From: an uncultured bacterium
Lineage (GTDB): Bacteria > Krumholzibacteriota > Krumholzibacteriia > LZORAL124-64-63
Length of the DNA stretch: 64,000 bases
NCBI GenBank assembly: GCA_963732385.1
Contig: CAVSZB010000007.1
Coordinates: 1,120,001-1,184,000 of the forward strand
Direction: 5' to 3'
Under the pieces are notes generated by a model that was not told the DNA's origin, searched no databases, and saw only the letters and a list, made by a program, of their open reading frames with translations. Shown here in pieces: positions 42,122-58,141 of the stretch. The position numbers and the translations under genes are program-made. Position 1 is the stretch's first letter. The number at the start of each line of letters is the position of its first letter.

Positions 42122-42604
42122 ATGACCGATCACCGCAAACTCGATCTCCGCACCCTGCACTTCGCCGGGCAGGAGGGGAAGTTGATCCCCGCCCTGCAGA
42201 AAACGCAGGAGCGGGAGGGCTATATCTCGCCGGCGGGCCTGCGCGCCATCAGCGAGGAGCACGGCGTGCCTCTCTCGCAGATCTACGGCGTGGCCACGTT
42301 CTACTCGCAGTTCCGCCTGCATCCGGTCGGGAAGCACATCGTGCGCGTCTGCCACGGCACGGCCTGCCACGTGCAGGGCGCGAAGGGCATCACCGAGGCA
42401 GTGGAGAGCACTCTCGGCGTCCAGACCGGCGAGACCACGGCGGACCGGCAGTTCACGCTGGAGATGGTGTCCTGCCTCGGCTGCTGCAGCCTGGCGCCGG
42501 TCATCATGATCGACAACGACACCTACGGAAACCTGAAGCCGGCGGACGTCAAGAAGGTCGTCAAGCCGTACCGGGACGCGAGCGCGGAGGCCGTGAAGAA
42601 ATGA
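42122..42604 (+). CDS. NuoE/HydC/BfuC-like [2Fe-2S] subunit
   Basis: [24 protein letters not shown]. Confidence 0.92.
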
Positions 42605-44372
42605 AGATCGTGGTCGGACTCGGCACCTGTGGCATCGCGGCCGGCGCGGAGCACACCTATTCCGCGCTGGCGGCGGCGACCGGCAACGGCGGGCCTCGTT
42701 TCGAACTGGAGAAGACCGGCTGTCTCGGCATGTGCTACCAGGAACCGCTGGTGGAGGTGCGCGACGACGCGGGCCACACCTGGCACTACGGCGGCATGAC
42801 GAAGGACCGGGTGGCGCGGCTGCTCGAGGAGCACGTGGCCGGCGGCGCGCCGGTGGCGGAATGGCTGGTCCGCACCGACGACGGGCGGCGGCTCCGAAAC
42901 GGCGTTCCTCGCCAAGCAGAACCGCATCGTGCTGCGCAACTGCGGCGTCATCAACCCGGAGTCGATCGACGACTACCTGGCGGTCGGAGGGGTACCAGGC
43001 GCTCGCGAAGGTGCTCGCCGAGCAGGACCCCGACGCGCTGATCAACTCCATCATCGAGTCGGGCCTGCGCGGCCGCGGCGGCGCCGGCTTCCTCACCGGC
43101 ATGAAGTGGCGCTTCACGCGCCTCGCCCCCGGCGACCACAAGTACGTGATCTGCAACGCCGACGAGGGCGATCCGGGGGCCTTCATGGACCGCTCGGTGC
43201 TCGAGAGCGACCCCCACTCCGTGCTCGAGGGGATGACCATCGCCGGCTTCGCCATCGGCGCCGACCGACGGCTACATCTACGTCCGCGCCGAGTACCCCA
43301 AGGCGATCGAGCGGCTGAACATCGCCATCGCCCAGGCCGAGGAGCGCGGCTGCCTCGGCGACAACATCCTCGGCTCCGGCTTCTCGCTTCCACGTCCGGC
43401 TCAAGGAGGGCGCCGGCGCCTTCGTCTGCGGCGAGGAGACCGCGCTCATCGGCTCGATCGAGGGCAAGCGCGGCATGCCGCGGGTGCGCCCGCCGTTCCC
43501 CGCGGTGAAGGGGCTGTGGGGCTGCCCCACGAACATCAACAACGTCGAGACCTTCGCGAACGTCCCCTGGATCGTCGCTGCAGCGGGCCGCAGGCGTTCA
43601 ACAGCCTCGGCACCGCCAACAGCAAGGGCACGAAGGTGTTCGCGCTGGCCGGCAAGGTGAAGCGCGGCGGTCTGGTCGAGGTGCCGATGGGCATCACGAT
43701 CCGCGAGATCGTGTTCGAGATCTGCGGCGGCATCAAGGAGGACCGGAAGTTCAAGGCCGTGCAGATGGGCGGCCCCTCCGGCGGCTGCATCCCGGCCGAA
43801 CTGGCCGACACGATCATCGACTACGAGTCGATCAACAAGACCGGCGCCATCATGGGCTCGGGCGGCCTCGTCGTCATGGACGAGACGACCTGCATGGTCG
43901 ACGTGGCGCGCTTCTTCCTCGACTTCACGCAGCGCGAGTCGTGCGGCAAGTGCACCTTCTGCCGGGTCGGCACGAAGCGGATGCTCGAGGTCCTCACCCG
44001 CATCACCGAGGGCGACGGGCGCGACGGCGACATCGAGCTGCTCGAGCAGCTCGCCGTCCTGGTCAAGAACAACTCGCTGTGCGGACTCGGTCAGACCGCG
44101 CCCAATCCGGTGCTGACCACGCTCAAGTACTTCCGCTCGGAGTACGAGGCGCACATCACGAACAGGAAGTGCCCGGCGCACAACTGCCGGAAGCTGCTGA
44201 CCTACAAGATCACCGACGCGTGCAACGGCTGCACCGCCTGCGGCCGGGTCTGTCCCACAGAAGGCGATCACCGGCGAGCAAGAAGGAGCTGCACGTCATC
44301 GAACAGTCGCAGTGCATCCAGTGCGACGAGTGCTACAAGACCTGCAAATTCCACGCGATCACGCGCAACTGA
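42601..44372 (+). CDS. NuoF/HydB/BfuB-like FMN/NADH subunit, bifurcating type; 587 aa after removing 8 inserted bases
   Basis: Thioredoxin-like N-terminus (GTCG, GCLGMC), [44 protein letters not shown]...CPAHNC and C-terminal 2x[4Fe-4S], spread over three frames. Confidence 0.85.
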
Positions 44373-44398
44373 CGACGGCCGAGCCCGAGAGGTAGGAC

Positions 44399-47300
44399 AT
44401 GGACCTGGTCAAGCTCGAGATAGACGGCAAGCGGATCATCGCCGACAACCGGCAGACCATTCTCGAGGTGGCCCGCGCCAACGGGATCACCAACATCCCC
44501 ACGCTGTGCCACGACGGACAGCTCGAACCGTTCGCCTCGTGCTTCCTGTGCGTGGTGAAGGTGAAGGGGGCGCGCACCCTGCTGCCCGCCTGCTCCACCA
44601 AGGTGGCGGGCGGCATGGTGGTCGAGACCGACAACGCAGAGGTGCGCCGCTCGCGCAAGGCGGCCCTCGAGCTGATGCTGTCGAACCACTACGCCGACTG
44701 CATCGGGCCGTGCCAGCTCGCCTGCCCGGCGGGGATCGACATCCAGGGCTACATCGCCCTGGCGGCGCTCGGCCAGTACGCCGACGCGATCCAGCTCATC
44801 AAGGAAAACAACCCGCTGCCCGCGGTGTGCGGCCGCGTCTGCACCCGCCCCTGCGAGGTGACGGGGTGCCGCCGCAACCTGATGGACGAGGCGGTCGGCA
44901 TCGACTACATCAAGCGCTACATCGCCGACCTCGACCTCGGGTCGGCGGCGCCGTGGCGTCCGCAGGTGGCGCCGGCGAACGGGCGCCGGGTGGCGGTCGT
45001 GGGCGGCGGCCCGGCCGGCCTCTCCTGCGCCTACTACCTGGCCGTGCGCGGCTACGGCGTGGAGATCTTCGAGAGCCAGCCCGAGGCGGGCGGCATGCTG
45101 CGCTACGGCATTCCCGAGTACCGCCTGCCCAAGGAGACGCTCGACCTCGAGATCAACCAGATCCTCGAACTCGGCGTGAGCTCTGCGCACCAACATCTCC
45201 CTCGGCCGCGATTTCACGCTGGCCTCGCTCCGGAGCGGACGGCTACGACGCCGTCTTCCTGGGCATCGGCGCCTGGGACACCTCGAAGATGCGCGTCCAG
45301 GACGAGGATGCGCCGGGCGTCCTGCCCGGCATCGAGTTCCTGCGCGAGTACGGCCTGCAACCGCGCCCAGCCGCTGCCGGGCCGGGTGCTGGTCGTCGGC
45401 GGCGGCAACACCGCCATCGACTGCGCGCGCACCTCGCTGCGCCTGGGCGCCGGCGAGGTCCGTCTGCTCTACCGTCGCACCCGCGCGGAGATGCCGGCCA
45501 ACGAGGTCGAGATCGAGGAGGCCGAGCACGAGGGGGTCCACATGGACTTCCTGGTCGCGCCGACCCGCGTCGTCCTCAAGGACGGGCGCGCCTGCGGCCT
45601 CGAGTGCCTGCGCATGGAGCTGGGCGAGCCCGACGCCTCCGGCCGCCGCAGCCCCAAGCCGGTCAAAGGCTCCGAATTCGTTATCGACGGCGACTGGATC
45701 ATCTCGGCCATCGGCCAGAGCACGCACGTGGCCGGCCTGGTCGGCGGCAAAATCCCCGAACTTCCTGCCCTTCGGCGAGAGCCTCGAACCTGACGCGCTG
45801 GCAGACCATCCAGGTCAACGAGAAGACGTTCGAAACGAGCGTCGACGGCGTCTTCTCCGGCGGCGACGTCGTCACCGGCGCCGCCACGGCGATCGAGGCG
45901 ATCGCGGCCGGCCGCAAGGCGGCCTACGCCATCGACCAGTACGTCCGCACCGGCAAGGCGCGCCCCGAGCCGATGCAGTTCAACAGCCGCAAGGACGCCT
46001 TCCGCAAGGTCACCGTGGAGGATCTGCGCGACGGCGCCCGCTACGCGCGCCGGCCGATGCCGGCCCTGGCCATCGACGAGCGCCTCAAGAGTTTCGCCGA
46101 GGTCGAGACCGGCTATACCGCCGGCGACATGCGGCAGGAGAGCCACCGCTGCCTCGAGTGCGGCTGCGTGGCGCTGTTCGACTGCGACCTGCGCCGCTAC
46201 GCCACCGAGTACGAAGTCGAAATCGACCACTTCCTCGGCGAGGCGAAGCAGTACCGCGTCGACCGGAGCCACCCGCTGATCGAACTCGACCCGAACAAGT
46301 GCATCCTGTGCGGACGCTGCGTGCGGATGTGCGGCGAGGTCGTCGGCGTGGCCGCCTACGGCTTCATCAACCGCGGGTTCAAGACGGTGGTCAAGCCGGC
46401 CCTCGGCGGCGCCCTGCTCGACACCGACTGCGTCTCGTGCGGCCTCTGCATCGGCACCTGCCCCACCGGCGCCATCGCCGAGATCCTCCCTCTGGCCAAG
46501 CCGGGGCCGTGGCTCACCGTGAAGACCCCCACGGTCTGCACGCTACTGCGGCGTCGGCTGCCGCTTCAACTTCGACAGCTACGGCGACTCGCTCGTCAAG
46601 GTGACCCGCTTCGACGACGACGCGGGCGCCACTTCGGGCAACCACTGCCGCAAGGGGCGCTTCGGCTACGGCTACGCGCAGTCGCCCGATCGTCTGCGCA
46701 CGGCTTTCATTCGCGCCGGACGCGAGCTGCAGGAGGCGAAGATCGAAGAAGCCGTCTCCTACGCCGCCATGCGCCTGAAGGAGTTGCGCCGCAGGCATCC
46801 GGGCGACGCGGTAGCGCCGTCTTCGTCTCCCCGCGCCTGACCAACGAGGAGATCTACCTGGCGCAGAAGTTCGCCCGCATCGCGCTCGGCACGCACCAGG
46901 TCACGACCTTCGCCCATCTGGTCAACCGCGACCTCAACTGCCCCGACGTGCATTCCAACGGCTCCTACCACGACCTCGAGGACGCCCAGGCGATCCTCGT
47001 GGTCGGCTCCGAACTGGCCGACGAGCACTTCGTGGCGGACCTGGCCGTGAAGAAGGCGCTCCGCAAGGGCGGGAAGCTGATCACCATCGGCCCGCGGGCG
47101 GACCAGACCTCGCGTTTCGCGGACATCTTCCTGCAGTGCGGCGCAGGCCAGGAGGCCGAGACGCTGCTGGGCATCCTCGCCGCCTGCGCCGAAGACACGC
47201 CCGATGTCCTGGCCGACGACGCCGTGCTGGCCGGGCTCGTGAAGAAGGCCGGCGTCGATGCGCGCGCGAAGGCAGCCGGCGTGGCCCCGGCCGACCTGCG

Positions 47301-48201
47301 CGCCGCGGCGGGGCTGCTCTGCGGCAGCATCCTGAAAGTTCTCGTGTTCAACCGGGACCGGCGCGCGCCCCGCGTCCCCGGCGACGCCCGCCTCTACGCG
47401 CAGGTTGCTTCGGCGCTCGGTTGCGGGCTGCTGGGCCTGCACGAAAAGGCCAACATGCAGGGCTTGTGCGATCTCGGCGCCAGCCCCCACTGGCTGCCCG
47501 GCTACGCCTCCACCGGCGATGCCAAGGCGATCGCCAACCTCGAGAAGGAGTGGTGCGTGGCGCTGCGCGTCACCGCCGGCGCCGGCGCCGACGTGGCCGA
47601 GGCGCTGCGGCTGAAGAAGATCAAGGTGGCCGTCGTGATCGGCGAGGACCCCCTGGGCGCCGCGTCGCTGCCGCCCGACCTGGCCGCCGGCCTGGCGGCC
47701 GCTGAGTTCCTGGTCGTGGCCGATCTCTTCCCCACCGCCACCACGCGGACCGCCGCCGTGGTGCTGCCGCTCTCGAGCGCGGCCGAAACGAGCGGCACCA
47801 TGACCAACTCGGAGCGCCGCGTGCAGTCGCTGCGCCGCGCCATGCCGCCGCTGGCCGGCGTCGAGACCTGGGACCTCATCTGCCGCCTCGCCGCCCAGAT
47901 GGGCTTCCGCTTCAAGATGAAGTACGACGGCCCCGCCGACGTCGCCGCCGAAATCGCCCGCCTCTTCCCTGCCTGGGGCACCGTGACCATCGACAGCGCC
48001 GACGCCGACGGTACCTGGAGCGCCGCCGGCGCCGGCCTGCCGCCGGTCCCGTTCGACCCCGCCCGCCTGACCGAACGCGTGCGCCCTGTGGTCACGAGCG
48101 ATCTCGACCACGTCGAAGGCCGTTTCGCCGTCTGGTTCGACACGACGATCGGCGAGGCCCGCAGGAAGCTGGCCGAGGCGGCGGCTGCCGCCGTTACCTA
48201 G
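44399..48201 (+). CDS. Fe-S/GltD-like FAD-NAD(P) oxidoreductase fused to a NuoG-like degenerate molybdopterin domain (NfnA/NsoC/SfrAB-like); 1264 aa after removing 8 inserted bases
   Basis: [2Fe-2S] (TLC..SCFLC..PAC), PCQLACP, CGRVCTRPCE, GGGPAG, GGGNTAIDCA, YRRT, GGDVVTG, 2x[4Fe-4S], CxYCGVGC..CRKGRFG, ETSGTMTNSERRVQ. Confidence 0.82.
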
Positions 48202-48234
48202 CGGCGCGCGGAAGTCATCATCAGTCGATGCGAA

Positions 48235-48261
48235 CCGGCCCGGGCGTCCTGCCCGGGCCGG
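48235..48261 (+). terminator. GC-rich hairpin after the operon (weak U-tract)
   Basis: CCGGCCCGGGC-GTCCT-GCCCGGGCCGG. Confidence 0.45.
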
Positions 48262-48385
48262 CCGCTTCAGGGGACACCGCCGCCGCCCCGGTTGCCTTTC
48301 GCCGTCGCGCGTCCCGCCCCCGTTGACATCTCCCCCCGGAACAGGCAATCTCCCCCCTCCCCACCCCCGCCAAGGAGGGAGCGTC

Positions 48386-49573
48386 ATGCCAGATATCTCC
48401 CGCATCCAGGAGCAGATCCGCGCCGAAGGCGTGGACGGCTGGCTGCTGTGCGATTTCCACAACCGCGACGCCATCGCCTACAAGGTCCTCGGCCTGGACC
48501 CGGCGAAGTTCACCAGCCGCCGCTGGTTCTACTGGATTCCGGCGACCGGCGAGCCGGTGCGCCTCTGCTCCAAGGTCGAGCCTCACCGGCTGGACGACCT
48601 GCCCGGTCCGCAGCGCTGGTACCTGTCGTGGCGCGAGCTGCACGACGGCCTGAAATCACTGCTCGGCAACGCGAAGACGGTGGCCATGCAGTGGTCGCCC
48701 GACTGCAACATCCCCTACGTCTCGATCACCGACGGCGGCACCGTCGACCTGGTCCGTCGGCTCGGCTACGAGGTGGTCTCCTCGGCCGGTCTGGTGCAGA
48801 CGTTCCAGGCCGTGCTCGACGACGCCGCGTACCGGTCGCACCTCGAGGCGTGCACGCGGGTGCAGAAGATCAAGGACGAGGCGTTCGCCCTGATCGGCAG
48901 CGAACTGCGCGCCGGCCGCACGATCACGCAGTACGACGGGCAGCAGTTCATCCTGCGCCGCTTCGCCGAGGAGGGACTCACCTGCATGGGCGAGAACCCG
49001 ATGGTCGGCACCAACGAGCACCCCGCCGACCCGCACTTCGAGCCGTCGCCGGAGAACGCCCGCCCGATCCGCAAGGGCGACACCGTGCTGATCGACCTGT
49101 GGGCGAAGCTGGACCAGCCCGGCGCCATCTTCTACGACATCACCTGGTGCGGCTTCGTCGGGAAGAACCCGCCGGCGAAGTACGTCGAGCTGTTCAACAC
49201 CGTGCGCGACGCCCGCGACGCGGCCGTGACCTTCATCCGCGCCCGCTACGCCGCCAAGCAGCCGGTGTACGGCTGGGAGGTGGACGATGCCTGCCGCAAC
49301 GTGGTGAAGAAGGCCGGCTACGGCGACTTCTTCATCCACCGCACCGGGCACTCCATCGGCGAACAGGTGCACGGCAACGGCGTCAACATCGACAATCTCG
49401 AAACGCGCGACGAGCGCGAGATCGTGCCCGGCATCTGCTTCTCGATCGAGCCGGGGATCTACCTCAAGGGCGAGATGGCGGCGCGCTCGGAGATCAACGT
49501 CTTCGTCACGCCCGCCGGCAAGGTGGATGTCGCGGGCGACCAGCAGCGCGACCTGGTCCTGATCGACGCCTGA
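48386..49573 (+). CDS. M24 family Xaa-Pro aminopeptidase
   Basis: AAGGAGG RBS; ADPHF, LIDLW, YDITW, HRTGHSIG, SIEPGIY, RSE. Confidence 0.9.
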   Translation: MPDISRIQEQIRAEGVDGWLLCDFHNRDAIAYKVLGLDPAKFTSRRWFYWIPATGEPVRLCSKVEPHRLDDLPGPQRWYLSWRELHDGLKSLLGNAKTVAMQWSPDCNIPYVSITDGGTVDLVRRLGYEVVSSAGLVQTFQAVLDDAAYRSHLEACTRVQKIKDEAFALIGSELRAGRTITQYDGQQFILRRFAEEGLTCMGENPMVGTNEHPADPHFEPSPENARPIRKGDTVLIDLWAKLDQPGAIFYDITWCGFVGKNPPAKYVELFNTVRDARDAAVTFIRARYAAKQPVYGWEVDDACRNVVKKAGYGDFFIHRTGHSIGEQVHGNGVNIDNLETRDEREIVPGICFSIEPGIYLKGEMAARSEINVFVTPAGKVDVAGDQQRDLVLIDA

Positions 49574-49590
49574 GCGGAAGGAGGCCCGTC

Positions 49591-51306
49591 GTGGGCTGGT
49601 ACCTCTGGGTGATCCTGGTTTACCTGCTCGTCCTGACCGGTTTCAACTTTCTGCGCGCGCGGAAAGTGCAGTCGCAGGACGACTTCATGGTGGCGGGGCG
49701 CAAGCTCTCCGTCACGACCATGGTCTTCACGCTGGTCTGCACCTGGATCGGCTCCGGCACGTTCATCGCCGGGGCGGAATACGCGGTGCGGGCCGGCTGG
49801 TCGTCGCTCTGGCTGCCGGCCGGGGCGTGGGTCGGCATCGCGGTGATCTACTTCCTCGCCGCGAAGATCCGCGGCTTCGGCCAGTACACCGTGGGCGACA
49901 TCCTCGAGGTGCGCTACGGCAAGTTCGCGCGGCTGTTCGGCGCGATCGCGCTCGTGATCGCCTTCACGACGATCGTCTCCTACCAGTTCCGCGCCGGCGG
50001 CTACATCCTGAACGTCGCCACCGACGGCGCGATCTCGGTCGAGATGGGCCAGGTCATCGCCGCCGCCTTCGTCATCCTGTTCACGTCGATGGGCGGCATG
50101 GTCGCCGTGGCCCACACCGACCTGCCCAACGGCATCATCATCGTGCTCGCCTGCTGCGCTGCGCTGCCGTTCGTGGTGCTGTTCGCCGGCGGCTGGAGCG
50201 GCGCCGCGGCCGCGCTGCCGCCACAGCATTTCGCCGTCTTCGCCTCCGACTTCGGCCGCTACCCCGCGCTCAAGGCGGGCGGCTACTTCCTGGCCACGCT
50301 GCTGCTGCTGATGGGCATCCAGTCGATGTACCAGAAGTTCTACTCGGCCAAGACCCCGGCCGAGGCTAAGAAGGCGGTCGGCCTCTGGATCTTCGGCACG
50401 ATCCTGGTCGAGACGGTGGTCGTGGTGATCGCGATCTACGCCGCCTCCGCGCATTGGGCCGACCTGCGCGCCTTCGACATCGCCGGCACGGTGAAGGAGC
50501 AGGTCGCCACCGGCCAGCTGCAGCCGGCCGAGGCCGGTACCCGCGCCCTCTCGCTCGCCACGCAGGCGGTGGCGGAGGGCACGGTCAAGCCGGAGCAGGC
50601 GGCCCGCCTGCAGGTGACCCTGCAGAGCGCCTTCGCCGGCCGCAACGACGCGGCCGCGGTGGCCGACGCCCACGCCGGCATCGACCCTGCGTCCATCGTA
50701 TTGCAGGCCGCCCGCGACATGGCCGGCCGCGGCGGCATCGCCATGCTGGTGGGCCTGTTGCTGCTGGGGGCCGCCTGCGCGGTCGTCATCTCGACCGGCA
50801 TGAACTACCTGCTCTCCCCCACGACGAACATCATGCGCGACATCTACCAGCGCTTCATCAACCCGCGGGCCGACCCGACGAAGATGGTGGCGCTGCAGAA
50901 GGTGTTCGTGGTGATCCTCGGCCTGTGCGCCTTCCTGATGATCTTCATCCCGACCGTCCTGCACTCCCGCATCTCGGTGCTGCGCTACTCGTACTTCGCC
51001 TACACGATGTACGGCGTGGCGATCACCCCGGCGCTGCTGGCCGCGCTCGCCTGGAAGCGCGCCACCCGCCAGGGCGGCCTCGCCTCGATCGTCTCGGGCG
51101 CCTTCATGGCCCTGCTGCTCGAACTGGTGGTCCCCAATGCCTTCCCGTCGGTGATGAACGGCGGCGACCCGTGGGGCATCCCGAGCATCTACCCGGCCGC
51201 GCTGGTCTCGATCGGCGCGCTGATCATCGTGAGCCTGCTGACCCCGCCGCCGACGGCGGCGGAGCTGGCGCCGCTGTTCGGCGGAGAGAAGGCCCAGGGG
51301 GCCTGA
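49591..51306 (+). CDS. Sodium:solute symporter (SSS) with a large loop insertion
   Basis: GTG start with AAGGAGG; DFMVAGRKL, TWIGSG, YTVGDILEVRYG, GGMVAVAHTD, YQKFYSAK, WKRAT. Confidence 0.9.
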   Translation: MGWYLWVILVYLLVLTGFNFLRARKVQSQDDFMVAGRKLSVTTMVFTLVCTWIGSGTFIAGAEYAVRAGWSSLWLPAGAWVGIAVIYFLAAKIRGFGQYTVGDILEVRYGKFARLFGAIALVIAFTTIVSYQFRAGGYILNVATDGAISVEMGQVIAAAFVILFTSMGGMVAVAHTDLPNGIIIVLACCAALPFVVLFAGGWSGAAAALPPQHFAVFASDFGRYPALKAGGYFLATLLLLMGIQSMYQKFYSAKTPAEAKKAVGLWIFGTILVETVVVVIAIYAASAHWADLRAFDIAGTVKEQVATGQLQPAEAGTRALSLATQAVAEGTVKPEQAARLQVTLQSAFAGRNDAAAVADAHAGIDPASIVLQAARDMAGRGGIAMLVGLLLLGAACAVVISTGMNYLLSPTTNIMRDIYQRFINPRADPTKMVALQKVFVVILGLCAFLMIFIPTVLHSRISVLRYSYFAYTMYGVAITPALLAALAWKRATRQGGLASIVSGAFMALLLELVVPNAFPSVMNGGDPWGIPSIYPAALVSIGALIIVSLLTPPPTAAELAPLFGGEKAQGA

Positions 51307-51327
51307 GCGGAGGGAAATCGTTGGCAA

Positions 51328-51363
51328 CGCGCGGGGGGACCGGAACGCCGTTCCCCCCGTGCG
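51328..51363. terminator. Hairpin between convergent genes
   Basis: CGCGCGGGGGGA-C-CGG-AACG-CCG-T-TCCCCCCGTGCG. Confidence 0.5.
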
Positions 51364-51386
51364 GTCAGTGACCCGGGCGAGTTGGC

Positions 51387-51650
51387 TCACTGCCCGTGAT
51401 CGAACACCATCTTCTGCACCTCGACCCCCTTGACGGCATTCAGCTTCGCCGCCAGTTCGTCGGCCACCCCCTCCTCGCCGCGCAGCTCCAGCAGCACCAG
51501 GCCGTTGGGGCCGCAGCCCTCGGGGCCGGCTTCGTGCAGGCCGAGACGGGTCTTGATGTGGCAGCCGTACTCGGTGAACAGTTGCTGCACGCGCGGGGCG
51601 TTCTCGAGGCGGTCGGTCACGTGGATGCCGAGGATCAGGTGCTTGTCCAT
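51387..51650 (-). CDS. Small ACT-like protein related to the TM1266 iron-only hydrogenase system regulator
   Basis: ILGIHVTDR..VQQLFTEYGCHIKTRLGLHE..LNAVKGVEV; hydrogenase context. Confidence 0.75.
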   Translation of the reverse strand: MDKHLILGIHVTDRLENAPRVQQLFTEYGCHIKTRLGLHEAGPEGCGPNGLVLLELRGEEGVADELAAKLNAVKGVEVQKMVFDHGQ

Positions 51651-51674
51651 GGGTCTCCTCCGGAGGGGCTGAGG

Positions 51675-53018
51675 TCAGACCGGCGGGGCGGGCGCCCCCG
51701 ACTCGCGGACCTCCCGCGCCGGCAGCGGCTGCGGGAGCGTGAAGGTGAACTCGGCCCACGCGCCGGGCGCGGAGTCGGCGCGCAGGCGGCCGCCGTGCAG
51801 TTGCACGATGCGCCAGCAGGTGTAGAGACCGACGCCGGATCCCTTCTCCTTCAGCAGCTCGGGGGTCTGCAGGCGGGAGAAGCGACGGAACAGCCGGCCG
51901 CGCTCGCTCGCGGGGAAACCGGGACCGTCGTTGCGGACCGCCACGACCAGGGAGCCGTTCTCGCGCGCCGCGGTCACGCGGATCGCGCCGTCGGGGAAGC
52001 CGTACTTGGCGGCGTTGCCGATCAGGTTGGTCATCACGACGCGCGCCAACTCGACATCGCACTCCACCGGTTCCACGGCGGCGGCGGGGGTGAGCTCCAG
52101 CCGCATGCGCCGCGCGTCGATCTGGGGGCGTACCAGGTCGGCGGCCGGTTCGACCACCTCGTGCGTCCAGTCGACGTCGGCGCGGGGGCGCAGCGCCAGG
52201 CCGCCGTCCTCGATGCGCGCCAGGTCGAGGTAGTCGCGCACGAGGCCGAGCAGGTGCTCCCCCTTGCCGATCATGCGCAGCAGCTTGTCGCGCTGCGCGG
52301 GGTCCACTTCGCCCAGGTAGCCGTCGGCCAGCGCGCGGGCGTCCATCACCAGCGAGGCGACCGGGCTCTTCAGCTCGTGAGCCACGAAGCCGAGCATCTC
52401 GGTGTAGGCGTGGTTGGCGCGCTCGAGCTGCTCGATCCGCCACGCCTTCTCCACGGCCTGCGCGAAACGCTCCGCCATCGCCAGGTGCAGGCGCACCTCG
52501 TGCTCGGCGTAGGTGTCGGGCCGGCGGGAGCTGCGGAAGAAGAGCCCGACCGTGCGCCCCTCCACCCGCAGCGGCGCGGTCAGGCTGGCGCGAACCCCTT
52601 CCTTCAGCAAAAGCGGCGTGGAGCGGCTGGCGGGCCGCTCCCGCAGGTAGGCGGCCAGGTCGTTGATCACCCGGACGCGGCTCCCCTCGAGCAGCGCGGC
52701 CAGCGAGCTGCCGGCCATGTCCTCGGCATAGCCCTCCCCGAGCAATAGCGGCGAGTAGGCGGCCCGGACCCAGCGCGACACGACCCGCCGCCCCTCCTCC
52801 TCGACGAAGGCGAGGCCGAGCCGGTCGCACGGGGTGATCTCGAGGGAGGCGTCGAAGACGAAATCCATCACGCCGGCGAGGGTCTCCGCCGCGGCGACCC
52901 GGCGGTTGATCGTCTCGAGCACCTCGCGCTCGCGACCGGAGAACTCCGCCGGAAGGACCGGCGCGCCGGCATCGACGTACTCGAGGACGCCGTAGTGCTG
53001 CGCGAACTCGCCGGTCAC
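51675..53018 (-). CDS. Cytoplasmic GAF-domain histidine kinase
   Basis: GTG overlaps the rex stop; GAF (ASLTAPLRVEGRTVG), AHELKSP, NLIGNAAKYG, NDGPG, GSGVGL; no TM helix. Confidence 0.9.
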   Translation of the reverse strand: MTGEFAQHYGVLEYVDAGAPVLPAEFSGREREVLETINRRVAAAETLAGVMDFVFDASLEITPCDRLGLAFVEEEGRRVVSRWVRAAYSPLLLGEGYAEDMAGSSLAALLEGSRVRVINDLAAYLRERPASRSTPLLLKEGVRASLTAPLRVEGRTVGLFFRSSRRPDTYAEHEVRLHLAMAERFAQAVEKAWRIEQLERANHAYTEMLGFVAHELKSPVASLVMDARALADGYLGEVDPAQRDKLLRMIGKGEHLLGLVRDYLDLARIEDGGLALRPRADVDWTHEVVEPAADLVRPQIDARRMRLELTPAAAVEPVECDVELARVVMTNLIGNAAKYGFPDGAIRVTAARENGSLVVAVRNDGPGFPASERGRLFRRFSRLQTPELLKEKGSGVGLYTCWRIVQLHGGRLRADSAPGAWAEFTFTLPQPLPAREVRESGAPAPPV

Positions 53019-53644
53019 AGCGGTTTCGTTTCCCCATCGCGCCGCGCGAAGTAGCCGGCCTTTTCGACGGTGGTGGTGATGTCCATCTCCTGCACGTGCA
53101 CGCCCGGCGGCAGCCTCAGCGCCACCGGCGCGAAGTTGACGAAGCTGGAGACGCCGGCCTCGCGCATCGTATCGACCGCCGCCTGCGCCGCGGCCGCCGG
53201 CACCGTGATGATGCCGACCTGCACGCCCAGCTCGCGGCAGATCCGCGCGAGATCGGACGCGGCGTGGCAGCGACAGCCGTGGATGACGCGTCCCGCCACC
53301 GCGGGGTCGCTGTCGAACGCCGCCACGATCGTCAGGTTGGGTTTGCGTCCCAGGAAGTAGGCCAGAACGGCGCGCCCGAGGTTGCCCACGCCGACCAGCG
53401 CCACGCGAAGCCCCTCCGGGTGGTCGAGCACCTTGCCGACCGCGTCGATGAGCGCGGTCACCTCGTACCCGCGCGCGGGGCTGCCGGTGAATCCGATGCG
53501 CATCAGGTCGCGCCGCACGAGCGCGGCCGTGCCGCCGGCAAGCGCGGCGAGCTGGTGGCTGTACAGGTAGGCCAGCCCCTGCGCCTGCAGATCGAGCAGG
53601 ATACGACGGTAGATACTGAGCCGATGGATCACCTTGGGCGTCAT
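53015..53644 (-). CDS. rex: Redox-sensing transcriptional repressor Rex
   Basis: RLSIYRRIL, VRRDL, GYEV, GVGNLGRA, AAFD, IITVP, NFAP. Confidence 0.93.
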   Translation of the reverse strand: MTPKVIHRLSIYRRILLDLQAQGLAYLYSHQLAALAGGTAALVRRDLMRIGFTGSPARGYEVTALIDAVGKVLDHPEGLRVALVGVGNLGRAVLAYFLGRKPNLTIVAAFDSDPAVAGRVIHGCRCHAASDLARICRELGVQVGIITVPAAAAQAAVDTMREAGVSSFVNFAPVALRLPPGVHVQEMDITTTVEKAGYFARRDGETKPL

Positions 53645-53672
53645 GATATTCCCGTTCTGTGACGTTCAAATG

Positions 53673-53690
53673 CTGTGACAGCCCTCACAG
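53673..53690. promoter_or_regulatory. Rex-type operator CTGTGA-N6-TCACAG
   Basis: Perfect palindrome 29 nt upstream of the rex ATG; matches the TGTGA-N6-TCACA core of Rex (and Crp) boxes. Confidence 0.75.
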
Positions 53691-53890
53691 CGCCCCGAAA
53701 ACTGCCGGATACCCCGTCCAAAGTCAATAATTTGCCTCTCCGCCGGCATTCCGGCCCCCAGGCGCCCGATTAATGGGCATTTATGGCGCAAAATCGGTTC
53801 CACGAACGCTCGAATGCGGACGATGCGACAGCCCCTTCGCGTCCCGCAGCCTACACCTTTCTGAATACGGTTTCAATACCCAGAATATAT

Positions 53891-53917
53891 ATTAAAGGCC
53901 TGAATTCAGCCTTTAAT
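53891..53917. promoter_or_regulatory. AT-rich nested inverted repeat in the rex/hyd divergent region
   Basis: ATTAAAGG-C-CTGAATTCAG-CCTTTAAT. Confidence 0.45.
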
Positions 53918-54081
53918 TGCCAATTTCACCGCGATTTGTATTTGCTTGCTTTTTTTCAACAGCTTAACACCTTAGCTCGGGGTCCGGCTTTATCAGGACT
54001 GACGCCCGTGATCCCCGCCCCCGCCCGCCCAATCCCGAGCGCGGCCCGCGGGTGCGCCGCGAGCTGCGAAAGGAGTGCGCC

Positions 54082-54462
54082 ATGGCCAAGATCCTGATCG
54101 TCGATGATGATCCCGATGTTGTCGACGCCTGCCGTCTCTTCCTCGAAAAGAAGGGGTTCAACGTCTCGGCCGCCTACAACCGGGCCGAGGGGATGAGCGC
54201 GATCCAGTCGTTCAAGCCCGACCTGGTCATCCTCGACGTGATGATGGACCAGCCCGACGACGGCATCGCGATGGCGCAGGACTTGCGTCGCCAGGGCTTC
54301 AAGGCCCCCATCCTCATGTTGACGAGCATCAGCAAGGTGACCGGCATGACCTACGGCCGGGACAACGATCTCGTGCCGGTGGACGAGTTCCAGGAGAAGC
54401 CGGTCGACCCGGCCACCCTGGTGGCGAAGGTCGAGCGGCTGCTCGGCAAGAAGGAGGGCTAG
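54082..54462 (+). CDS. Single-domain response regulator receiver
   Basis: AAAGGAG RBS; LIVDDD, ILDVMM, MLTS, EKP. Confidence 0.92.
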   Translation: MAKILIVDDDPDVVDACRLFLEKKGFNVSAAYNRAEGMSAIQSFKPDLVILDVMMDQPDDGIAMAQDLRRQGFKAPILMLTSISKVTGMTYGRDNDLVPVDEFQEKPVDPATLVAKVERLLGKKEG

Positions 54463-54466
54463 GCCC

Positions 54467-54988
54467 ATGCTGGTGACGGAACGTGAGCGGCTGCGCGACG
54501 AGATCACGGCCCTGGCCGACCGCCTCGGCCGCGAGCGCAGTTCCCTGATTCCCCTCCTGCAGGAAGTGCAGTCGCGCTACCTGCAGATCTCAGAATACGC
54601 GATGCAGGTCGTGGCCGACCTGCTCGACATCCACCCGGTGGAAGTCTACAGCGTGGCGTCGTTCTACAGCTTCCTCGACCACGCGCCCAAGGGCCGGTTC
54701 GTCATCCGGCTCTGCCGCACCATCTCCTGCGACATGGCGGGCAAGGACGCGGTGGCGCGCCAGCTCCGCAACGATCTCGGCGTCGACTTCGGCGAAACCA
54801 CGACCGACGCCAAGTTCTCGCTCGAGTGGGCCAACTGCATCGGCATGTGCGACCAGGGCCCGGCGCTGCTGGTGAACGACCAGGTCTTCGCCAGGGTCAC
54901 GCCGGAGAAGGTGCACGACATCCTCGAGGCGTGCCGCCGCACCTTCGGCGTGTACGCGCAGGAGAGGAAGGAGGGGCACCCGGTATGA
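54467..54988 (+). CDS. hydC: HydC/NuoE-like [2Fe-2S] subunit
   Basis: SVASFYSF, CRTISC, CIGMCDQGP. Confidence 0.9.
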   Translation: MLVTERERLRDEITALADRLGRERSSLIPLLQEVQSRYLQISEYAMQVVADLLDIHPVEVYSVASFYSFLDHAPKGRFVIRLCRTISCDMAGKDAVARQLRNDLGVDFGETTTDAKFSLEWANCIGMCDQGPALLVNDQVFARVTPEKVHDILEACRRTFGVYAQERKEGHPV

Positions 54989-56178
54989 GCAAGCAGCAGC
55001 AACCCGGTCTGCCGACCTTCGCCGCCATGACGCCCGGCGCCGGGCTGAAGGCCGCGATCGGCAAGGGCCGCGCCGACATCATCGGCGAAATCAGCGCCTC
55101 GGGCATCAAGGGGCGCGGCGGCGCCGGCTTCCCGGTCGGCGTGAAGTGGAACCTCTGCGGCGCCGCCCGCGGCGATCACAAGTACGTCGTCTGCAACGCG
55201 GACGAGGGCGAGCCCGGCACCTTCAAGGACCGCCTCATCCTGATGGAGCACCCCGACCTGGTGTTCGAGGGGATGACGATCGGCGGCCTGACCGTCGGCG
55301 CGAAGGAGGGCATCCTCTACCTGCGCGGGGAGTACACCTACCTGCGCCAGCCGCTCGAAGCCGTGCTGGCGAGACGACGCGAAGCGAAGCTGCTCGGAAA
55401 GGACATCCTGGGCAAGGCCGGCTTCGAGTTCGACATCCGCATCCAGATGGGCGCCGGCGCCTACGTCTGCGGCGAGGAGACCGCCCTGATCGAATCGCTC
55501 GAGGGGCACCGCGGCGAGCCGCGCAACCGGCCGCCGTTCCCGGTCGACACCGGCTACCTCGACCGCCCGACCGTCGTGAACAACGTGGAAACCCTGGCCT
55601 GGGTCGCCTGCATCCTCCAGAAGGGGGCGCCCTGGTTCAAGAGCGTCGGCACCGAGAAGTCCACGGGGCTGAAGATCTTCAGCGTGTCGGGCGACTGCGA
55701 ACGTCCCGGCGTCTACGAATTCCCGCTGGGCATCACCGTGGCGAAGCTGCTCGAGGCGGTCGGCGGCCAGGACGCCAAGGCGGTCCAGGTCGGCGGGGCC
55801 TCCGGTCATTGCGTGCCGCGGTCGGAGTTCAATCGCGCCATCGCGTACGAGGACGTGTCCACCGGCGGCGCCATCATCGTGTTCGGTTGTGACCGCGACA
55901 TGCTCGACATCGCCGCGAATTTCCTCGACTTCTTCAGTGAGGAATCGTGTGGCCAGTGCACGCCCTGCCGCGACGGAAATCCCCGCCTGCTCGAGGGCGT
56001 GGAGCTGCTGCGGGAGGGCCGCTGCTCGATGAGCTACCTCAACGAACTGTGCGGCCTGGGCGAGACGATGCAGCTGGCGTCGAAGTGCGGGCTGGGCCAG
56101 TCCAGCCCCAACGCCTTCCTGTCGATCGTGAAGCACTTCAAGGACGAGATCATGGGCCGCGTGCCCGCGGGCCGCTAG
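54985..56178 (+). CDS. hydB: Short HydB/NuoF diaphorase subunit (non-bifurcating type)
   Basis: GRGGAGFP, ADEGEPGTFKD, GAYVCGEET, GGASG, ESCGQCTPC..KCGLG; no N-terminal Trx-like or C-terminal ferredoxin domain. Confidence 0.9.
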   Translation: MSKQQQPGLPTFAAMTPGAGLKAAIGKGRADIIGEISASGIKGRGGAGFPVGVKWNLCGAARGDHKYVVCNADEGEPGTFKDRLILMEHPDLVFEGMTIGGLTVGAKEGILYLRGEYTYLRQPLEAVLARRREAKLLGKDILGKAGFEFDIRIQMGAGAYVCGEETALIESLEGHRGEPRNRPPFPVDTGYLDRPTVVNNVETLAWVACILQKGAPWFKSVGTEKSTGLKIFSVSGDCERPGVYEFPLGITVAKLLEAVGGQDAKAVQVGGASGHCVPRSEFNRAIAYEDVSTGGAIIVFGCDRDMLDIAANFLDFFSEESCGQCTPCRDGNPRLLEGVELLREGRCSMSYLNELCGLGETMQLASKCGLGQSSPNAFLSIVKHFKDEIMGRVPAGR

Positions 56179-56212
56179 GCGCGCCGCCGCGCGCGAGCCA
56201 AGGAGCCGGAAT

Positions 56213-58141
56213 ATGGCCGAGAGCAAGAAGAACGACGATACGTCACGCGCCCCCGTCAGCCAGCGCGGTCACGCGGTCCCTGTCGCGACCGACATGGCCG
56301 CCATCGGGGCGATGGTGGCGGTCAACATCGACGGCCAGGATGTGAAGGTGCCGCTGGGCACGACAATCCTGAATGCCGCCGCGACCCTGGGGATCCGCAT
56401 CCCGACCCTCTGCAACCACCCCGACCTGCACATCGCCGGCGTCTGCCGGGTCTGCGTGGTCGAGGTGGAGAACCAGCGCACCCTGCAGGCCGCCTGCGCC
56501 TACCCGATCACGGCGCCGCTGAAGGTGAAAACCCACACCCGCAAGGTGCGCCAGGCCCGGCGCCATGTCGTCGACCTGATGCTCGCCAACCACTACGGCG
56601 AGTGCTACGCCTGCGCGCGCAACCACAACTGCGAGCTGCAGACGCTCGCGCATGAGTACGGCGTGGACTTCTTCCGCTTCGGGCACCCCGAAGAGCCGTT
56701 CACCGAGATGGACCACTCCAGCCACTCGGTGCTGCGCGACATGAACAAGTGCGTGCTGTGCCGCCGCTGCGTCCGCACCTGCATCGACCTGCAGGAGGTC
56801 GGCGTGCTGGAGGCCGTCGGCCGCGGCGACCAGACGCACATCGCCACGTTCATGGACAAGCCGCTGGCCGACGTGGTCTGCATCAACTGCGGTCAGTGCA
56901 TCAACCGCTGCCCCACCGGCGCCCTGCGCGCCAACGACCCCACCGACGAGGTCTGGGCAGCCATCGACGACCCGAAGAAGCATGTCGTCATCCAGACGGC
57001 GCCGGCGCCCCGCGCGGCGATCGGCGAGTGCTTCGACCTCGAGCCGGGGCAGCCGCTCACCTTCGAGATGAATTCCGCGCTGCGCATGTGCGGCTTCAAC
57101 AAGGTGTTCGACACCAACTTCACCGCCGACCTGACGATCATCGAGGAGGGCACGGAGCTGATCCTGCGCCTCTACAAGGCGCTGGTGCAGAAGGACGCCT
57201 CGGTGGCCCTGCCGCAGTTCACGAGCTGCTCGCCCGGCTGGGTGAAGTATCTCGAGCACTTCTACCCCGAGTACATCCCGAACGTCTCGACGGCGAAGAG
57301 CCCGCAGCAGATGTTCGGCGCCGTCATCAAGACGTACTACGCGAAGCTGAACAACATCGACCCGGCCGACATCGTCACGGTGGCCCTCATGCCGTGCTCG
57401 GCGAAGAAATTCGAGTGCAACCGCCCCGAGATGGCCGACAGCGGCTTCAAGGACGTCGACTACGGCCTGACCACCCGCGAGCTGGCCAAGATGATCAAGG
57501 AGGCCGGCATCGACCTGCCGAACATGCCGAAGTCCGACTTCGACGACCCGTTCGGCACCGCCACCGGCTCGGGCGTCATCTTCGGCGCCACCGGCGGCGT
57601 GATGGAGGCGGCGCTGCGCACGGTGATCGAACTGGTGACCGGTCTCAAGGTCGAGAGCCTGTTCGAGCACGCCGACATCATCCCGGTGCGCGGCTTCGAG
57701 GGGGCCCGCATCATCGAGCTGAAGATCCCCGCGGTCGGCCCGGTGCCGCCGATGTTCAAGCACCTGCTGAAGGACTGGAAGTGGCTCGAGGGGGCGACGC
57801 TGAAGGTCGCCGTGGCCCACGGCACGGCCAACGCCAAGAAGGTGATGGAGGACATCAAGGCGGGCGGCCCGTTCGCGTCCTGCCACTTCATCGAGTTCAT
57901 GGGCTGCCCCGGCGGCTGCATCGGCGGCGGCGGCCAGCCGATCCCGACCAGCCTCGAGATCCGGACGGCCCGCGCCAAGGCGATCTACGCGGAGGACAGC
58001 GCCTACGCCGTCCGCAAGTCGCACGAGAACGAGGCGGTGCTGAAGCTCTACAAGGAGTTCCTCACCGACGGCCCGTGCGGCCACCTCAGCCACAAGCTGC
58101 TGCACACCCACTATACCCCGCGCGGCAAGTACATCGAATGA
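56213..58141 (+). CDS. hydA: Group A [FeFe]-hydrogenase catalytic subunit
   Basis: [2Fe-2S], His-ligated cluster (HYGECYAC..C), 2x[4Fe-4S]; H-cluster motifs TSCSPGW, MPCSAKKFE, EFMGCPGGCIGGGGQP; RKSHEN..LLHTHY. Confidence 0.96.
   Translation: MAESKKNDDTSRAPVSQRGHAVPVATDMAAIGAMVAVNIDGQDVKVPLGTTILNAAATLGIRIPTLCNHPDLHIAGVCRVCVVEVENQRTLQAACAYPITAPLKVKTHTRKVRQARRHVVDLMLANHYGECYACARNHNCELQTLAHEYGVDFFRFGHPEEPFTEMDHSSHSVLRDMNKCVLCRRCVRTCIDLQEVGVLEAVGRGDQTHIATFMDKPLADVVCINCGQCINRCPTGALRANDPTDEVWAAIDDPKKHVVIQTAPAPRAAIGECFDLEPGQPLTFEMNSALRMCGFNKVFDTNFTADLTIIEEGTELILRLYKALVQKDASVALPQFTSCSPGWVKYLEHFYPEYIPNVSTAKSPQQMFGAVIKTYYAKLNNIDPADIVTVALMPCSAKKFECNRPEMADSGFKDVDYGLTTRELAKMIKEAGIDLPNMPKSDFDDPFGTATGSGVIFGATGGVMEAALRTVIELVTGLKVESLFEHADIIPVRGFEGARIIELKIPAVGPVPPMFKHLLKDWKWLEGATLKVAVAHGTANAKKVMEDIKAGGPFASCHFIEFMGCPGGCIGGGGQPIPTSLEIRTARAKAIYAEDSAYAVRKSHENEAVLKLYKEFLTDGPCGHLSHKLLHTHYTPRGKYIE

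What the first reader, a model, noticed from the sequence alone, without database searches (positions are those of the whole stretch)
42122..58141. Two contrasting NuoEF modules: a bifurcating Bfu complex without hydrogenase beside a non-bifurcating [FeFe]-hydrogenase
Seen: the NuoF at 42601 has [23 protein letters not shown], the H-x5-C-x4-C site and C-terminal 2x[4Fe-4S]. The NuoF at 54985 has ADEGEPGTFK, GAYVCGEE and GGASG and lacks the extra domains. Known: these signatures separate electron-bifurcating HydB/BfuB from NADH-only HydB. Inference: bifurcation here is assigned to an NADP(H)-type GltD subunit (an NfnABC-like transhydrogenase), while H2 turnover is simply NADH-linked. That split would suit low-H2, syntrophy-like peptide fermentation, consistent with the peptidase and symporter between the two operons. 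Subunit swapping between the two complexes is also possible.
Basis: partly seen in the sequence, partly recalled or inferred. Interest (0 to 1): 0.75.

Follow-up and report, generated by a model that had tools for sequence, protein, structure and literature searches.

The report
Transhydrogenase operon beside NADH-only hydrogenase
This stretch of a Krumholzibacteria-type genome holds the genes of two known kinds of enzyme, a likely electron-bifurcating NADH/NADPH/ferredoxin transhydrogenase and a likely NADH-only hydrogenase, which are neighbours in only some relatives, while the less ordinary part is a conserved six-gene cassette, probably regulatory, in front of the transhydrogenase.

Summary
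Observation confirmed. Module 1 (42122-48201) is an Nfn-Bfu/Stn transhydrogenase; best structures are StnABC and NfnABC. Its frameshifts are all inserted bases and likely assembly errors. Module 2 (54467-58141) meets every published sequence criterion of non-bifurcating HydABC. Both types are known.

Bifurcation sits in BfuBC, not GltD. The genome also encodes a BfuB-GltD [FeFe]-hydrogenase, Hdr-Mvh, NfnSL and Rnf, so H2 turnover is not only NADH-linked. The two modules occur without each other in relatives, and the peptidase does not follow the operon elsewhere. Nothing supports subunit swapping.

The conserved unit is a nine-gene operon starting at 38610: unknown gene, two DRTGG proteins, RsbW-like kinase, H-cluster-deficient HydA-like protein, 133-aa Cys-rich protein, bfuCBA. 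This scan found that cassette before on other DNA (e1-4495053, e1-2210051). Added here: the 133-aa domain is fused to BfuC in other complexes, and a Rex-type box precedes all three hydrogenase operons but not the transhydrogenase.

The parts
38610..39146 (+). 178-aa conserved protein of unknown function, first gene of the nine-gene operon
   Evidence: No Pfam or NCBIfam hit; Atlas best score 0.76, no lead; upstream of the 133-aa gene in 34 of 36 loci with 3 kb or more upstream
39179..39508 (+). DRTGG-domain protein 1
   Evidence: PF07085 E 5.7e-8; DRTGG upstream in 34 of 36 loci
39548..39901 (+). DRTGG-domain protein 2
   Evidence: PF07085 E 2.6e-5, just under cut-off
39898..40341 (+). RsbW-like HATPase_c protein, putative Ser/Thr kinase
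   Evidence: PF13581 E 3.2e-8; 34 of 36 loci; kinase label inferred from family knowledge
40360..41646 (+). HydA-like Fe-S protein with 2x[4Fe-4S], four H-domain Cys and a C-terminal FeS domain, lacking the [2Fe]-subsite residues
   Evidence: PF02906, PF04060; C140, C195, C296, C300 in 52 of 52 aligned homologues; P2 Lys replaced (I 43, M 8, L 1) and P1 proton-transfer Cys replaced (T 50 of 52)
41646..42048 (+). 133-aa Cys-rich (likely Zn-ribbon) protein, one inserted base near 41849; domain also found fused to BfuC
   Evidence: Intact in G001 and G008; 309 homologues; NuoE is the next gene in 64 of 64 loci with 400 bp or more downstream; NuoE fusions in 9 genome loci and 14 of 36 long hits scanned
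42122..42604 (+). BfuC (NfnC/StnA), [2Fe-2S] thioredoxin-like, intact
   Evidence: PF01257 E 8e-51
42601..44372 (+). BfuB (NfnB/StnB), bifurcating-type, broken by 8 single-base insertions in this assembly
   Evidence: intact G008 orthologue hits 8oh5_B 830 bits, 9bov_B 830, 9n5u_B 817, versus 711 or less for hydrogenase HydB chains
44399..48201 (+). BfuA (NfnA/StnC): Fer2, GltD (NADP(H)/FAD), Fe-S chain, inactive FdhF-like domain; 7 insertion sites in this assembly
   Evidence: Intact 1264-aa G001 orthologue hits 9bov_A 859 bits, 8oh5_C 760, 9n5u_A 653; Lys ligand IDYIKRY 44900, RLPK 45116, YRRTR 45470
48386..49573 (+). M24 Xaa-Pro aminopeptidase, not part of the conserved operon
   Evidence: PF00557; not found after bfuA in 18 of 18 metagenome loci with 1 kb or more of flank
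49591..51306 (+). SSF sodium:solute symporter, substrate unknown
   Evidence: PF00474
51387..51650 (-). TM1266-like / CPF_0552 family small protein
   Evidence: PF21699 weak; NF052672 above cut-off
51675..53018 (-). GAF-domain histidine kinase
   Evidence: PF13185, PF00512, PF02518
53015..53644 (-). Rex NADH/NAD+-sensing repressor
   Evidence: PF06971, PF02629; cluster members named Rex
53674..53689 (.). Perfect TGTGA-N6-TCACA palindrome, likely Rex operator, in the rex / hyd divergent region
   Evidence: 1 of 4 perfect sites in the genome, 3 of them ahead of hydrogenase operons; same place in G001 and G002
54082..54462 (+). Single-domain response regulator leading the hydCBA operon
   Evidence: PF00072; precedes hydC in most orthologous loci
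54467..54988 (+). HydC
   Evidence: PF01257 E 1.5e-45
54985..56178 (+). Short HydB, 397 aa, non-bifurcating type (T/K/Y/GGASG)
   Evidence: criteria of PMC7311640
56213..58141 (+). HydA with complete H-cluster motifs
   Evidence: NF040763 above cut-off; 7q4v_A 586 bits; maturases hydE, hydG, hydF on contig C8

Best explanation
The region holds two separate operons: a nine-gene operon that likely encodes an electron-bifurcating Nfn-Bfu (Stn-type) transhydrogenase with six probably regulatory accessory proteins, and a hydCBA operon that likely encodes a ferredoxin-independent NADH-linked [FeFe]-hydrogenase, predicted to be under Rex control. Transhydrogenase (inferred from the solved homologues): NADP(H) binds at the FAD of the GltD domain in BfuA, which does not bifurcate; electrons pass along the BfuA clusters to the B1-FMN-C1 site of BfuBC and are split between NAD+ and ferredoxin via B3/B4; the reaction is reversible. 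Hydrogenase (inferred): NADH + H+ to NAD+ + H2, which evolves H2 only at low H2 pressure or else takes H2 up; Rex would switch it on, together with the other two hydrogenases, when NADH is high. The two enzymes would be linked only through the shared NAD(H) pool, beside Rnf, NfnSL and complex I, and not by exchange of subunits. Their adjacency is lineage-specific clustering of redox genes. The frameshifts are likely assembly errors. Shown: gene content, motifs, synteny, distribution. Inferred: all activities, direction, regulation.
For: BfuB and BfuA orthologues score highest against StnBC and NfnAB structures. Lys cluster ligand, Arg239 equivalent and YRR motif present. Short HydB has T/K/Y and no GGPSG, the same row as GGASG proteins in Losey Table S1, and lacks B2-B5 sites. 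Trees separate both HydB and HydA by type. Breaks are insertions only, with no in-frame stop and pN/pS 0.13-0.20 against the nearest intact orthologue, like intact neighbours at 0.14-0.29; intact in G001 and G008; contigs of related organisms lack the extra bases at the 6 places listed in this operon. Of 10 genomes with this operon clade, 4 have the short HydB and 6 do not (G001). Of 18 genomes with the short HydB, 7 show no near-full-length Nfn-BfuA. Three of 4 perfect palindromes precede the three hydrogenase operons; G008 has neither rex nor a site.
Against: No activity was measured. No characterised enzyme was in my trees. All 4 genomes with both this operon clade and the short HydB have them adjacent, and G125 and G126 have a different Nfn-Bfu clade 11-18 kb from the hydrogenase, so some selection for proximity is possible. 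The palindrome count in the window alone is not above chance (2 found, mean 0.76, 18 of 100 shuffles reach 2); it also fits CRP-type proteins (recalled), and G009, G010, G013 and G015 have rex beside a hydrogenase without a perfect site there. GGPSG alone is not diagnostic: 9 short T/K/Y NuoF proteins carry it. A S. wolfei-like hydrogenase was predicted NADP-linked in Sporomusa sphaeroides (PMC12456013 passages). No reads of this exact strain were found (best share 0.19).
Confidence: 0.75

Rival explanations
1. One reading: the two operons are a selected unit for low-H2, syntrophy-like peptide fermentation, in which the transhydrogenase and Rnf move ferredoxin and NADPH electrons to NADH and the NADH-only hydrogenase is the main H2 outlet.
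For: Adjacent in G000, G001, G002, G008; a second Nfn-Bfu clade lies 11-18 kb away in G125 and G126; 11 of 18 short-HydB genomes also have an Nfn-BfuA-type gene; G008 has only this catalytic [FeFe] enzyme, plus Rnf and NfnSL; non-bifurcating enzymes work at 2-40 Pa H2 (PMC7311640 abstract).
Against: G000 has two more hydrogenases; about 68 of 208 genomes have an Nfn-BfuA-type gene but only 18 the short HydB; in G013, G015, G016, G118, G127 and G129 the short-HydB operon sits beside a bifurcating-type hydrogenase or BfuB-GltD module instead; peptidase not conserved after bfuA; only the hydrogenase side has the palindrome.
Confidence: 0.15
2. The Bfu operon of this genome is a recent pseudogene, made redundant by NfnSL.
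For: 16 indel sites in three genes between 41849 and 46815, none in hydCBA; canonical NfnSL is on contig C4.
Against: All are insertions, no nonsense codon, pN/pS as in intact neighbours; G002 has many other insertions at different places over the same region; G008 keeps both NfnSL and an intact operon.
Confidence: 0.05
3. Subunits are exchanged, giving a bifurcating hydrogenase (HydA + BfuBC) or a non-bifurcating NADH:NADP+ oxidoreductase (BfuA + short HydBC).
For: The N-terminal Fe-S domains of BfuA and HydA are homologous, about 37-40% identical.
Against: HydA groups by its own HydB type, 20 against 6 sequences; each module is found without the other; BfuA + short HydB would uncouple the NADPH and NADH pools (inference).
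Confidence: 0.05

Closest known systems
StnABC of Sporomusa ovata (PDB 8OH5; PMC7483475, PMC10482914) and NfnABC of Caldicellulosiruptor saccharolyticus (9BOV; PMC11829005) and Thermococcus sibiricus (9N5U): Type 1 Nfn-Bfu (PMC9304861)
   Same: Gene order C-B-A; BfuB of about 585 aa with all cluster sites; BfuA with GltD insert, Lys-ligated cluster, inactive FdhF-like domain
   Different: Preceded by a conserved six-gene cassette that I did not see in the passages read of these papers; BfuA about 90 aa longer; Ile in place of StnC Cys114 (a variant the Stn paper notes); host also has NfnSL, whereas Stn and Nfn were called almost mutually exclusive in acetogens
Non-bifurcating NADH-dependent Hyd1ABC of Syntrophomonas wolfei and HydAB of Syntrophus aciditrophicus (PMC7311640); sub-type II BfuABC of Hydrogenedentota (PMC11406978)
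   Same: T/K/Y residues, no GGPSG, about 400 aa, no B2-B5 sites; orthologues 72-76% identical in loci titled Hydrogenedentota and Holophagaceae, the groups named for sub-type II
   Different: GGASG where Syntrophomonadaceae have GGTSG; led by a response regulator; direct comparison with the two characterised enzymes was not possible
Bifurcating HydABC (Thermotoga maritima, Acetobacterium woodii, Thermoanaerobacter kivui)
   Same: HydA and HydC architecture of module 2; BfuBC core of module 1
   Different: Module 2 lacks B2-B5 and the A/M/F/GGPSG residues; module 1 has no H-domain
Kinase/DRTGG/Fe-S accessory genes of tetrameric hydrogenase operons in Bacillota and Thermotogota, and group C sensory hydrogenases (recalled from Calusinska 2010 and Poudel 2016, not read; sensory group from PMC8924675 passages)
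   Same: DRTGG proteins, an RsbW-like kinase and a HydA-like Fe-S protein upstream of a NuoE gene
   Different: Here they precede a transhydrogenase (26 of 26 long loci; 0 with an H-domain downstream); the HydA-like protein lacks the P2 Lys in 52 of 52; no PHP phosphatase gene between the six; an added 133-aa Cys-rich gene

Membership tests
Bfu family (PMC9304861) | BfuB with FMN, SLBB and B1-B5 sites plus BfuC with C1 | tested here: met
   Motifs in the window; intact G008 orthologue aligned to 8oh5_B and 9bov_B end to end
Bfu family (PMC9304861) | Coupled NAD+/ferredoxin reduction | not testable with these tools
   Needs enzyme assay
Nfn-Bfu / Stn (Type 1) | BfuA with GltD domain inserted after the N-terminal [2Fe-2S] domain, then NuoG/FdhF-like part | tested here: met
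   Only three PDB chains pass E 1e-100, all NfnA/StnC
Nfn-Bfu / Stn (Type 1) | Lys ligand of the FAD-proximal cluster (StnC K170) and Arg239 equivalent | tested here: met
   IDYIKRY 44900 and EYRLPK 45116
Nfn-Bfu / Stn (Type 1) | NADP(H) specificity | tested here: inconclusive
   YRRTR aligns with YRRT of StnC and NfnA; homology only
Canonical NfnSL (FAD bifurcation in NfnL), for module 1 | Glu cluster ligand and an NfnS partner | tested here: not met
   Lys in the window; NfnS matches lie elsewhere, and the true NfnSL (GRLERF) is at C4:134480-136806
Formate dehydrogenase alpha, for BfuA | Full FdhF profile with catalytic Cys/Sec | tested here: not met
   TIGR01591 270 bits against cut-off 666; VTTFAHLVN has no Cys at the expected place (motif recalled)
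Non-bifurcating NADH-dependent HydABC (PMC7311640) | T/S at 232, K/S/A at 234, Y at 367, no GGPSG | tested here: met
   PGTFK, GAYVCG, GGASG
Non-bifurcating NADH-dependent HydABC (PMC7311640) | Missing B2-B5 sites | tested here: met
   397 aa; Pfam finds only Complex1_51K, SLBB, NADH_4Fe-4S
Non-bifurcating NADH-dependent HydABC (PMC7311640) | Catalytic H-cluster and maturases | tested here: met
   P1-P3 intact; hydE, hydG, hydF on C8
Non-bifurcating NADH-dependent HydABC (PMC7311640) | Groups with the characterised non-bifurcating enzymes in a tree | tested here: inconclusive
   Falls outside the A/M/F clade, but no characterised sequence was in the tree
Non-bifurcating NADH-dependent HydABC (PMC7311640) | Ferredoxin-independent H2:NAD+ activity | not testable with these tools
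   Needs assay
Bifurcating HydABC, for module 2 | A/E-M-F-GGPSG and B3/B4 domain | tested here: not met
Group C sensory [FeFe]-hydrogenase, for 40360-41646 | H-cluster pocket with the P2 Lys | tested here: not met
   0 of 52 homologues have Lys there; the four Cys are in 52 of 52; role of the Lys recalled
Rex regulon | Operator TTGTGAA-W4-TTCACAA upstream of targets | tested here: inconclusive
   Core TGTGA-N6-TCACA matches ahead of three hydrogenase operons; consensus from the listed abstract of PMC2883068; binding untested

The most novel reading that the evidence does not exclude
This Nfn-Bfu clade carries its own signalling system and an extra subunit. The H-cluster-less HydA-like protein reads the ferredoxin redox state, the DRTGG proteins read adenine nucleotides, the kinase switches the transhydrogenase by phosphorylation, and the 133-aa Cys-rich protein is a detachable form of a domain that other Bfu complexes carry fused to BfuC. 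This would be post-translational control of an electron-bifurcating enzyme, set apart from the Rex-controlled hydrogenases, and would explain why the cell keeps both Nfn-Bfu and NfnSL.
Probability: 0.25. Interest if true: 0.65.

Novelty: new variant of a known kind. Interest (0 to 1): 0.32.

Why it matters
The pairing itself teaches little: both enzymes are characterised types, and co-occurrence of bifurcating and non-bifurcating Bfu-type enzymes is published. The value lies in three things. The nine-gene operon offers named candidates for how a Bfu enzyme is regulated or assembled. The 133-aa domain has no clear solved fold match and recurs as a BfuC fusion. G008 gives a compact intact test case with Nfn-Bfu, NfnSL, Rnf and only a non-bifurcating [FeFe]-hydrogenase. 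The data also caution that GGPSG alone should not be used to call bifurcation.

Tried and rejected
Complex prediction of BfuC with the 133-aa protein gave no answer (score 0.00 twice, controls not folded); it is not used as evidence either way. Cross-pairing models were not run, since homologous interfaces would be uninformative. Fold searches of the 133-aa model (pLDDT 83) found nothing clear: no Foldseek match at E 0.001, best Z 3.5; this does not show a new fold. The Atlas gave no lead for the 178-aa protein; the 133-aa protein has no Atlas result. Promoter/terminator scan was at chance level. No sequencing run holds this strain (shares 0.19 or less); RNA-run contigs of relatives cover parts of both operons but do not show transcription, and habitat is not inferred from them. 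The first tree run timed out and was redone with FastTree. The metagenome loci (8 kb flanks) cannot test adjacency of hydCBA, which lies 12 kb downstream of the query gene. Literature searches for the cassette: DRTGG+hydrogenase+kinase+operon 1 paper, DRTGG+hydrogenase 2 papers, both listings only and off-topic by title; two further searches gave 0. A search for Stn with non-bifurcating hydrogenase listed 12 of 17 papers; the two checked do not describe the pairing. Most subscription journals are not in the library. Rejected: formate dehydrogenase, canonical NfnL and H2-sensing hydrogenase readings (see membership tests).


Full report
Setting. The window is G000:C7:1120001-1184000 in a 3.82 Mb, 9-contig, 95.8% complete genome. 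Proteins in the same 90% clusters are named Candidatus Krumholzibacteriia.

Observation. The long NuoF (42601-44372) has [29 protein letters not shown]-x5-C-x4-C, two C-terminal CxxCxxCxxxC and an N-terminal three-Cys domain. The short NuoF (54985-56178) is one 397-aa frame with ADEGEPGTFK, GAYVCGEE and GGASG and none of the extra domains.

Frameshifts. Against the nearest intact orthologues, bfuB has 8 single-base insertions, bfuA 7 insertion sites (plus one compensating pair at its end) and the 133-aa gene 1; bfuC and the flanking genes have none. There is no in-frame stop, and pN/pS is 0.13-0.20 for the broken genes against 0.14-0.29 for intact neighbours (bfuA against the more distant G008 gives 0.26). 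G001 and G008 have intact frames. Contigs of related organisms lack the extra base at the six places that the tool listed in this operon; 39 further rows were not shown. G002 carries many different insertions over the same region. I read this as assembly error. Reads of the exact strain were not found, so it is not proven.

Module 1. The intact G008 BfuB scores 830, 830 and 817 bits against StnB, Csac NfnB and Tsib NfnB, and 711 or less against hydrogenase HydB chains. The intact G001 BfuA (1264 aa) has only three PDB matches at E 1e-100: NfnA, StnC, NfnA. It keeps the Lys ligand and the Arg that PMC10482914 (passages and section 9) describes for StnC, where the FAD is shown not to bifurcate. 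PMC11829005 (passages) places bifurcation at B1-FMN-C1. PMC9304861 (abstract, part 1 of sections 4 and 5) defines this as Type 1 Nfn-Bfu. So the enzyme is a known type, and GltD supplies the third substrate, not the bifurcation site.

Module 2. PMC7311640 (passages, section 17, two supplement searches) gives T/S-232, K/S/A-234, Y-367 and absence of GGPSG as non-bifurcating criteria; all are met, and its Table S1 lists six proteins of 409-434 aa with T/K/Y/GGASG. HydA has intact P1-P3 and passes NF040763; hydE, hydG and hydF are on C8. PMC11406978 (passages and section 9) describes the matching sub-type II and states that nearly all its carriers also have a putative bifurcating hydrogenase. One caution: 9 of the 70 NuoF sequences listed combine T/K/Y with GGPSG; most are NuoE-fused, HoxF-like proteins (label inferred).

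Trees. FastTree on 59 NuoF cores (5 duplicates or near-duplicates and 12 HoxF-like rows dropped; no characterised enzyme included) puts the window BfuB with G008 and G009 (1.0) among GltD-BfuA-linked proteins (0.97) inside the A/M/F clade (0.99). The short HydB lies in a T/K/Y clade with HoxF-like proteins (1.0); the HydA-linked subgroup itself has weak support (0.52). The 26 paired HydA sequences split 20 against 6 by HydB type.

Rest of the genome. C3:222489-228 kb encodes HydC, a BfuB with [23 protein letters not shown] and a GltD tail in place of B3/B4, a catalytic HydA and a hydrogenase-kinase fusion; this matches sub-type I of PMC11406978. C7:1.43 Mb has HdrA-MvhDGA, C5 a split AOR-Bfu, C3 Rnf, C7 complex I, C4 canonical NfnSL with the Glu ligand, three 2-oxoacid:ferredoxin oxidoreductases, and C8 a 757-aa COX1-family protein that I read as qNOR. 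So neither bifurcation nor H2 turnover is confined to this window.

Distribution. In 208 genomes of the phylum, 17 have the short HydB at E 1e-150, 18 with G001 where the contig cuts it. About 68 have a near-full-length Nfn-BfuA-type match (my count). Eleven of the 18 have both: four adjacent with this operon clade (G000, G001, G002, G008), two with another clade 11-18 kb away (G125, G126), one about 65 kb away (G070), four on other contigs. Seven have none. Six genomes (G009, G170-G174) have this operon clade without the short HydB. In G013, G015, G016, G118, G127 and G129 the short-HydB operon lies beside a bifurcating-type hydrogenase or BfuB-GltD module. The short-HydB operon thus tends to sit near some Bfu module, but not a fixed one.

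The conserved unit. Six genes upstream of bfuC travel with it. In 80 metagenome loci picked by the 133-aa gene (best 80 of 150), NuoE is next in 64 of 64 loci with enough flank, a GltD-type BfuA follows in 26 of 26, an H-domain in 0 of 26, the HydA-like gene precedes in 59 of 62, and the kinase, DRTGG and unknown genes in 34 of 36. These loci are related (59-98% identity), so the counts are not independent. The peptidase and symporter were found in none, including 18 loci with 1.3-2.2 kb beyond bfuA; an inserted gene, as in G001, could hide them. The HydA-like protein keeps its four Cys in 52 of 52 homologues but has lost the P2 Lys and the P1 proton-transfer Cys in all, so it likely binds Fe-S only. 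The 133-aa protein has ten invariant Cys/His ligands. Its distant homologues are C-terminal fusions to NuoE in 9 of the 10 distant loci fetched and in 14 of 36 long hits scanned; 5 of the 36 carry CBS domains and 1 is joined to the HydA-like protein. I found no description of this cassette with a transhydrogenase; similar genes near tetrameric hydrogenases are recalled, not read. This scan reported the cassette before in two other genomes; my counts were made before I saw those notes.

Regulation. A perfect TGTGA-N6-TCACA lies 30 bp before rex. Of 4 perfect sites in the genome, 3 lie ahead of the three hydrogenase operons and the fourth inside an AT-rich coding stretch. None lies before the nine-gene operon at up to one mismatch. 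The site recurs in G001, G002 and 3 of 7 more distant hydCBA loci checked (L026, L039, L043). G008 has no rex match and no site. Against: the count in the window is not above chance, and four genomes with rex beside a hydrogenase lack a perfect site there.

Mechanism and verdict. Most likely the window holds two independently regulated enzymes linked through the NAD(H) pool: a reversible Nfn-Bfu transhydrogenase with its own accessory cassette, and a Rex-controlled NADH-linked hydrogenase useful at low H2. Peptide fermentation is plausible for the phylum (bioRxiv 2020.09.22.307553 passages), but syntrophy is not shown. The finding as stated is two new members of known kinds; the nine-gene operon makes it a variant of a known kind. 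Other papers seen as passages only: PMC7483475, PMC8924675, PMC13556243, PMC12456013, PMC13082233; PMC2883068 as a search listing. Supplements of the Stn, NfnABC and Bfu papers were not read and may show gene neighbourhoods that bear on the novelty of the cassette.

Noticed in passing
G000:C3:222489-231600 (L001:8490-17594): Second [FeFe]-hydrogenase whose BfuB has a GltD tail (Lys ligand, YRR) instead of B3/B4, one frameshift, followed by a hydrogenase-kinase fusion; [10 protein letters not shown] variant
   Followed up: partly
G000:C5 (L002:7420-12579): Aldehyde oxidoreductase split and fused to BfuC and BfuA around a bifurcating-type BfuB; already noted by the scan (e1-9807073)
   Followed up: partly
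G000:C4:134480-136806: Canonical NfnSL in the same genome as Nfn-Bfu; also in G008. The two were described as almost mutually exclusive in acetogens (PMC7483475)
   Followed up: partly
L082, L102-L108, L110, L111, L192-L196: Bfu-like complexes with the Cys-rich domain fused to BfuC, often BfuB-GltD and a short BfuA, with no H-domain seen nearby; third substrate unknown
   Followed up: partly
L027, L028, L030-L036: Short T/K/Y NuoF proteins with GGPSG, against its use as a stand-alone bifurcation marker
   Followed up: partly
G000:C2 about 164000-171000: AT-rich stretch unlike the 69% GC genome; foreign insert or binning contamination
   Followed up: no
window 61165-61180: One-mismatch TGTGA-N6-TCACA site ahead of a cytochrome c / DUF3373 / multiheme cytochrome operon; perfect at the same place in G002
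   Followed up: partly
G000:C8 (L006:8723-13807): hydE, hydG, aspartase-like lyase, hydF, next to a suf-like cluster
   Followed up: no
G000:C7:1097424-1097645: Weak second homologue of the 133-aa domain (E 2e-6), also in G001 and G002
   Followed up: no
window 36463-38160 (-) and 58233-61055 (-): SNF-family sodium symporter divergent from the operon; beta-propeller protein with FlgD-Ig tail convergent with hydA
   Followed up: no
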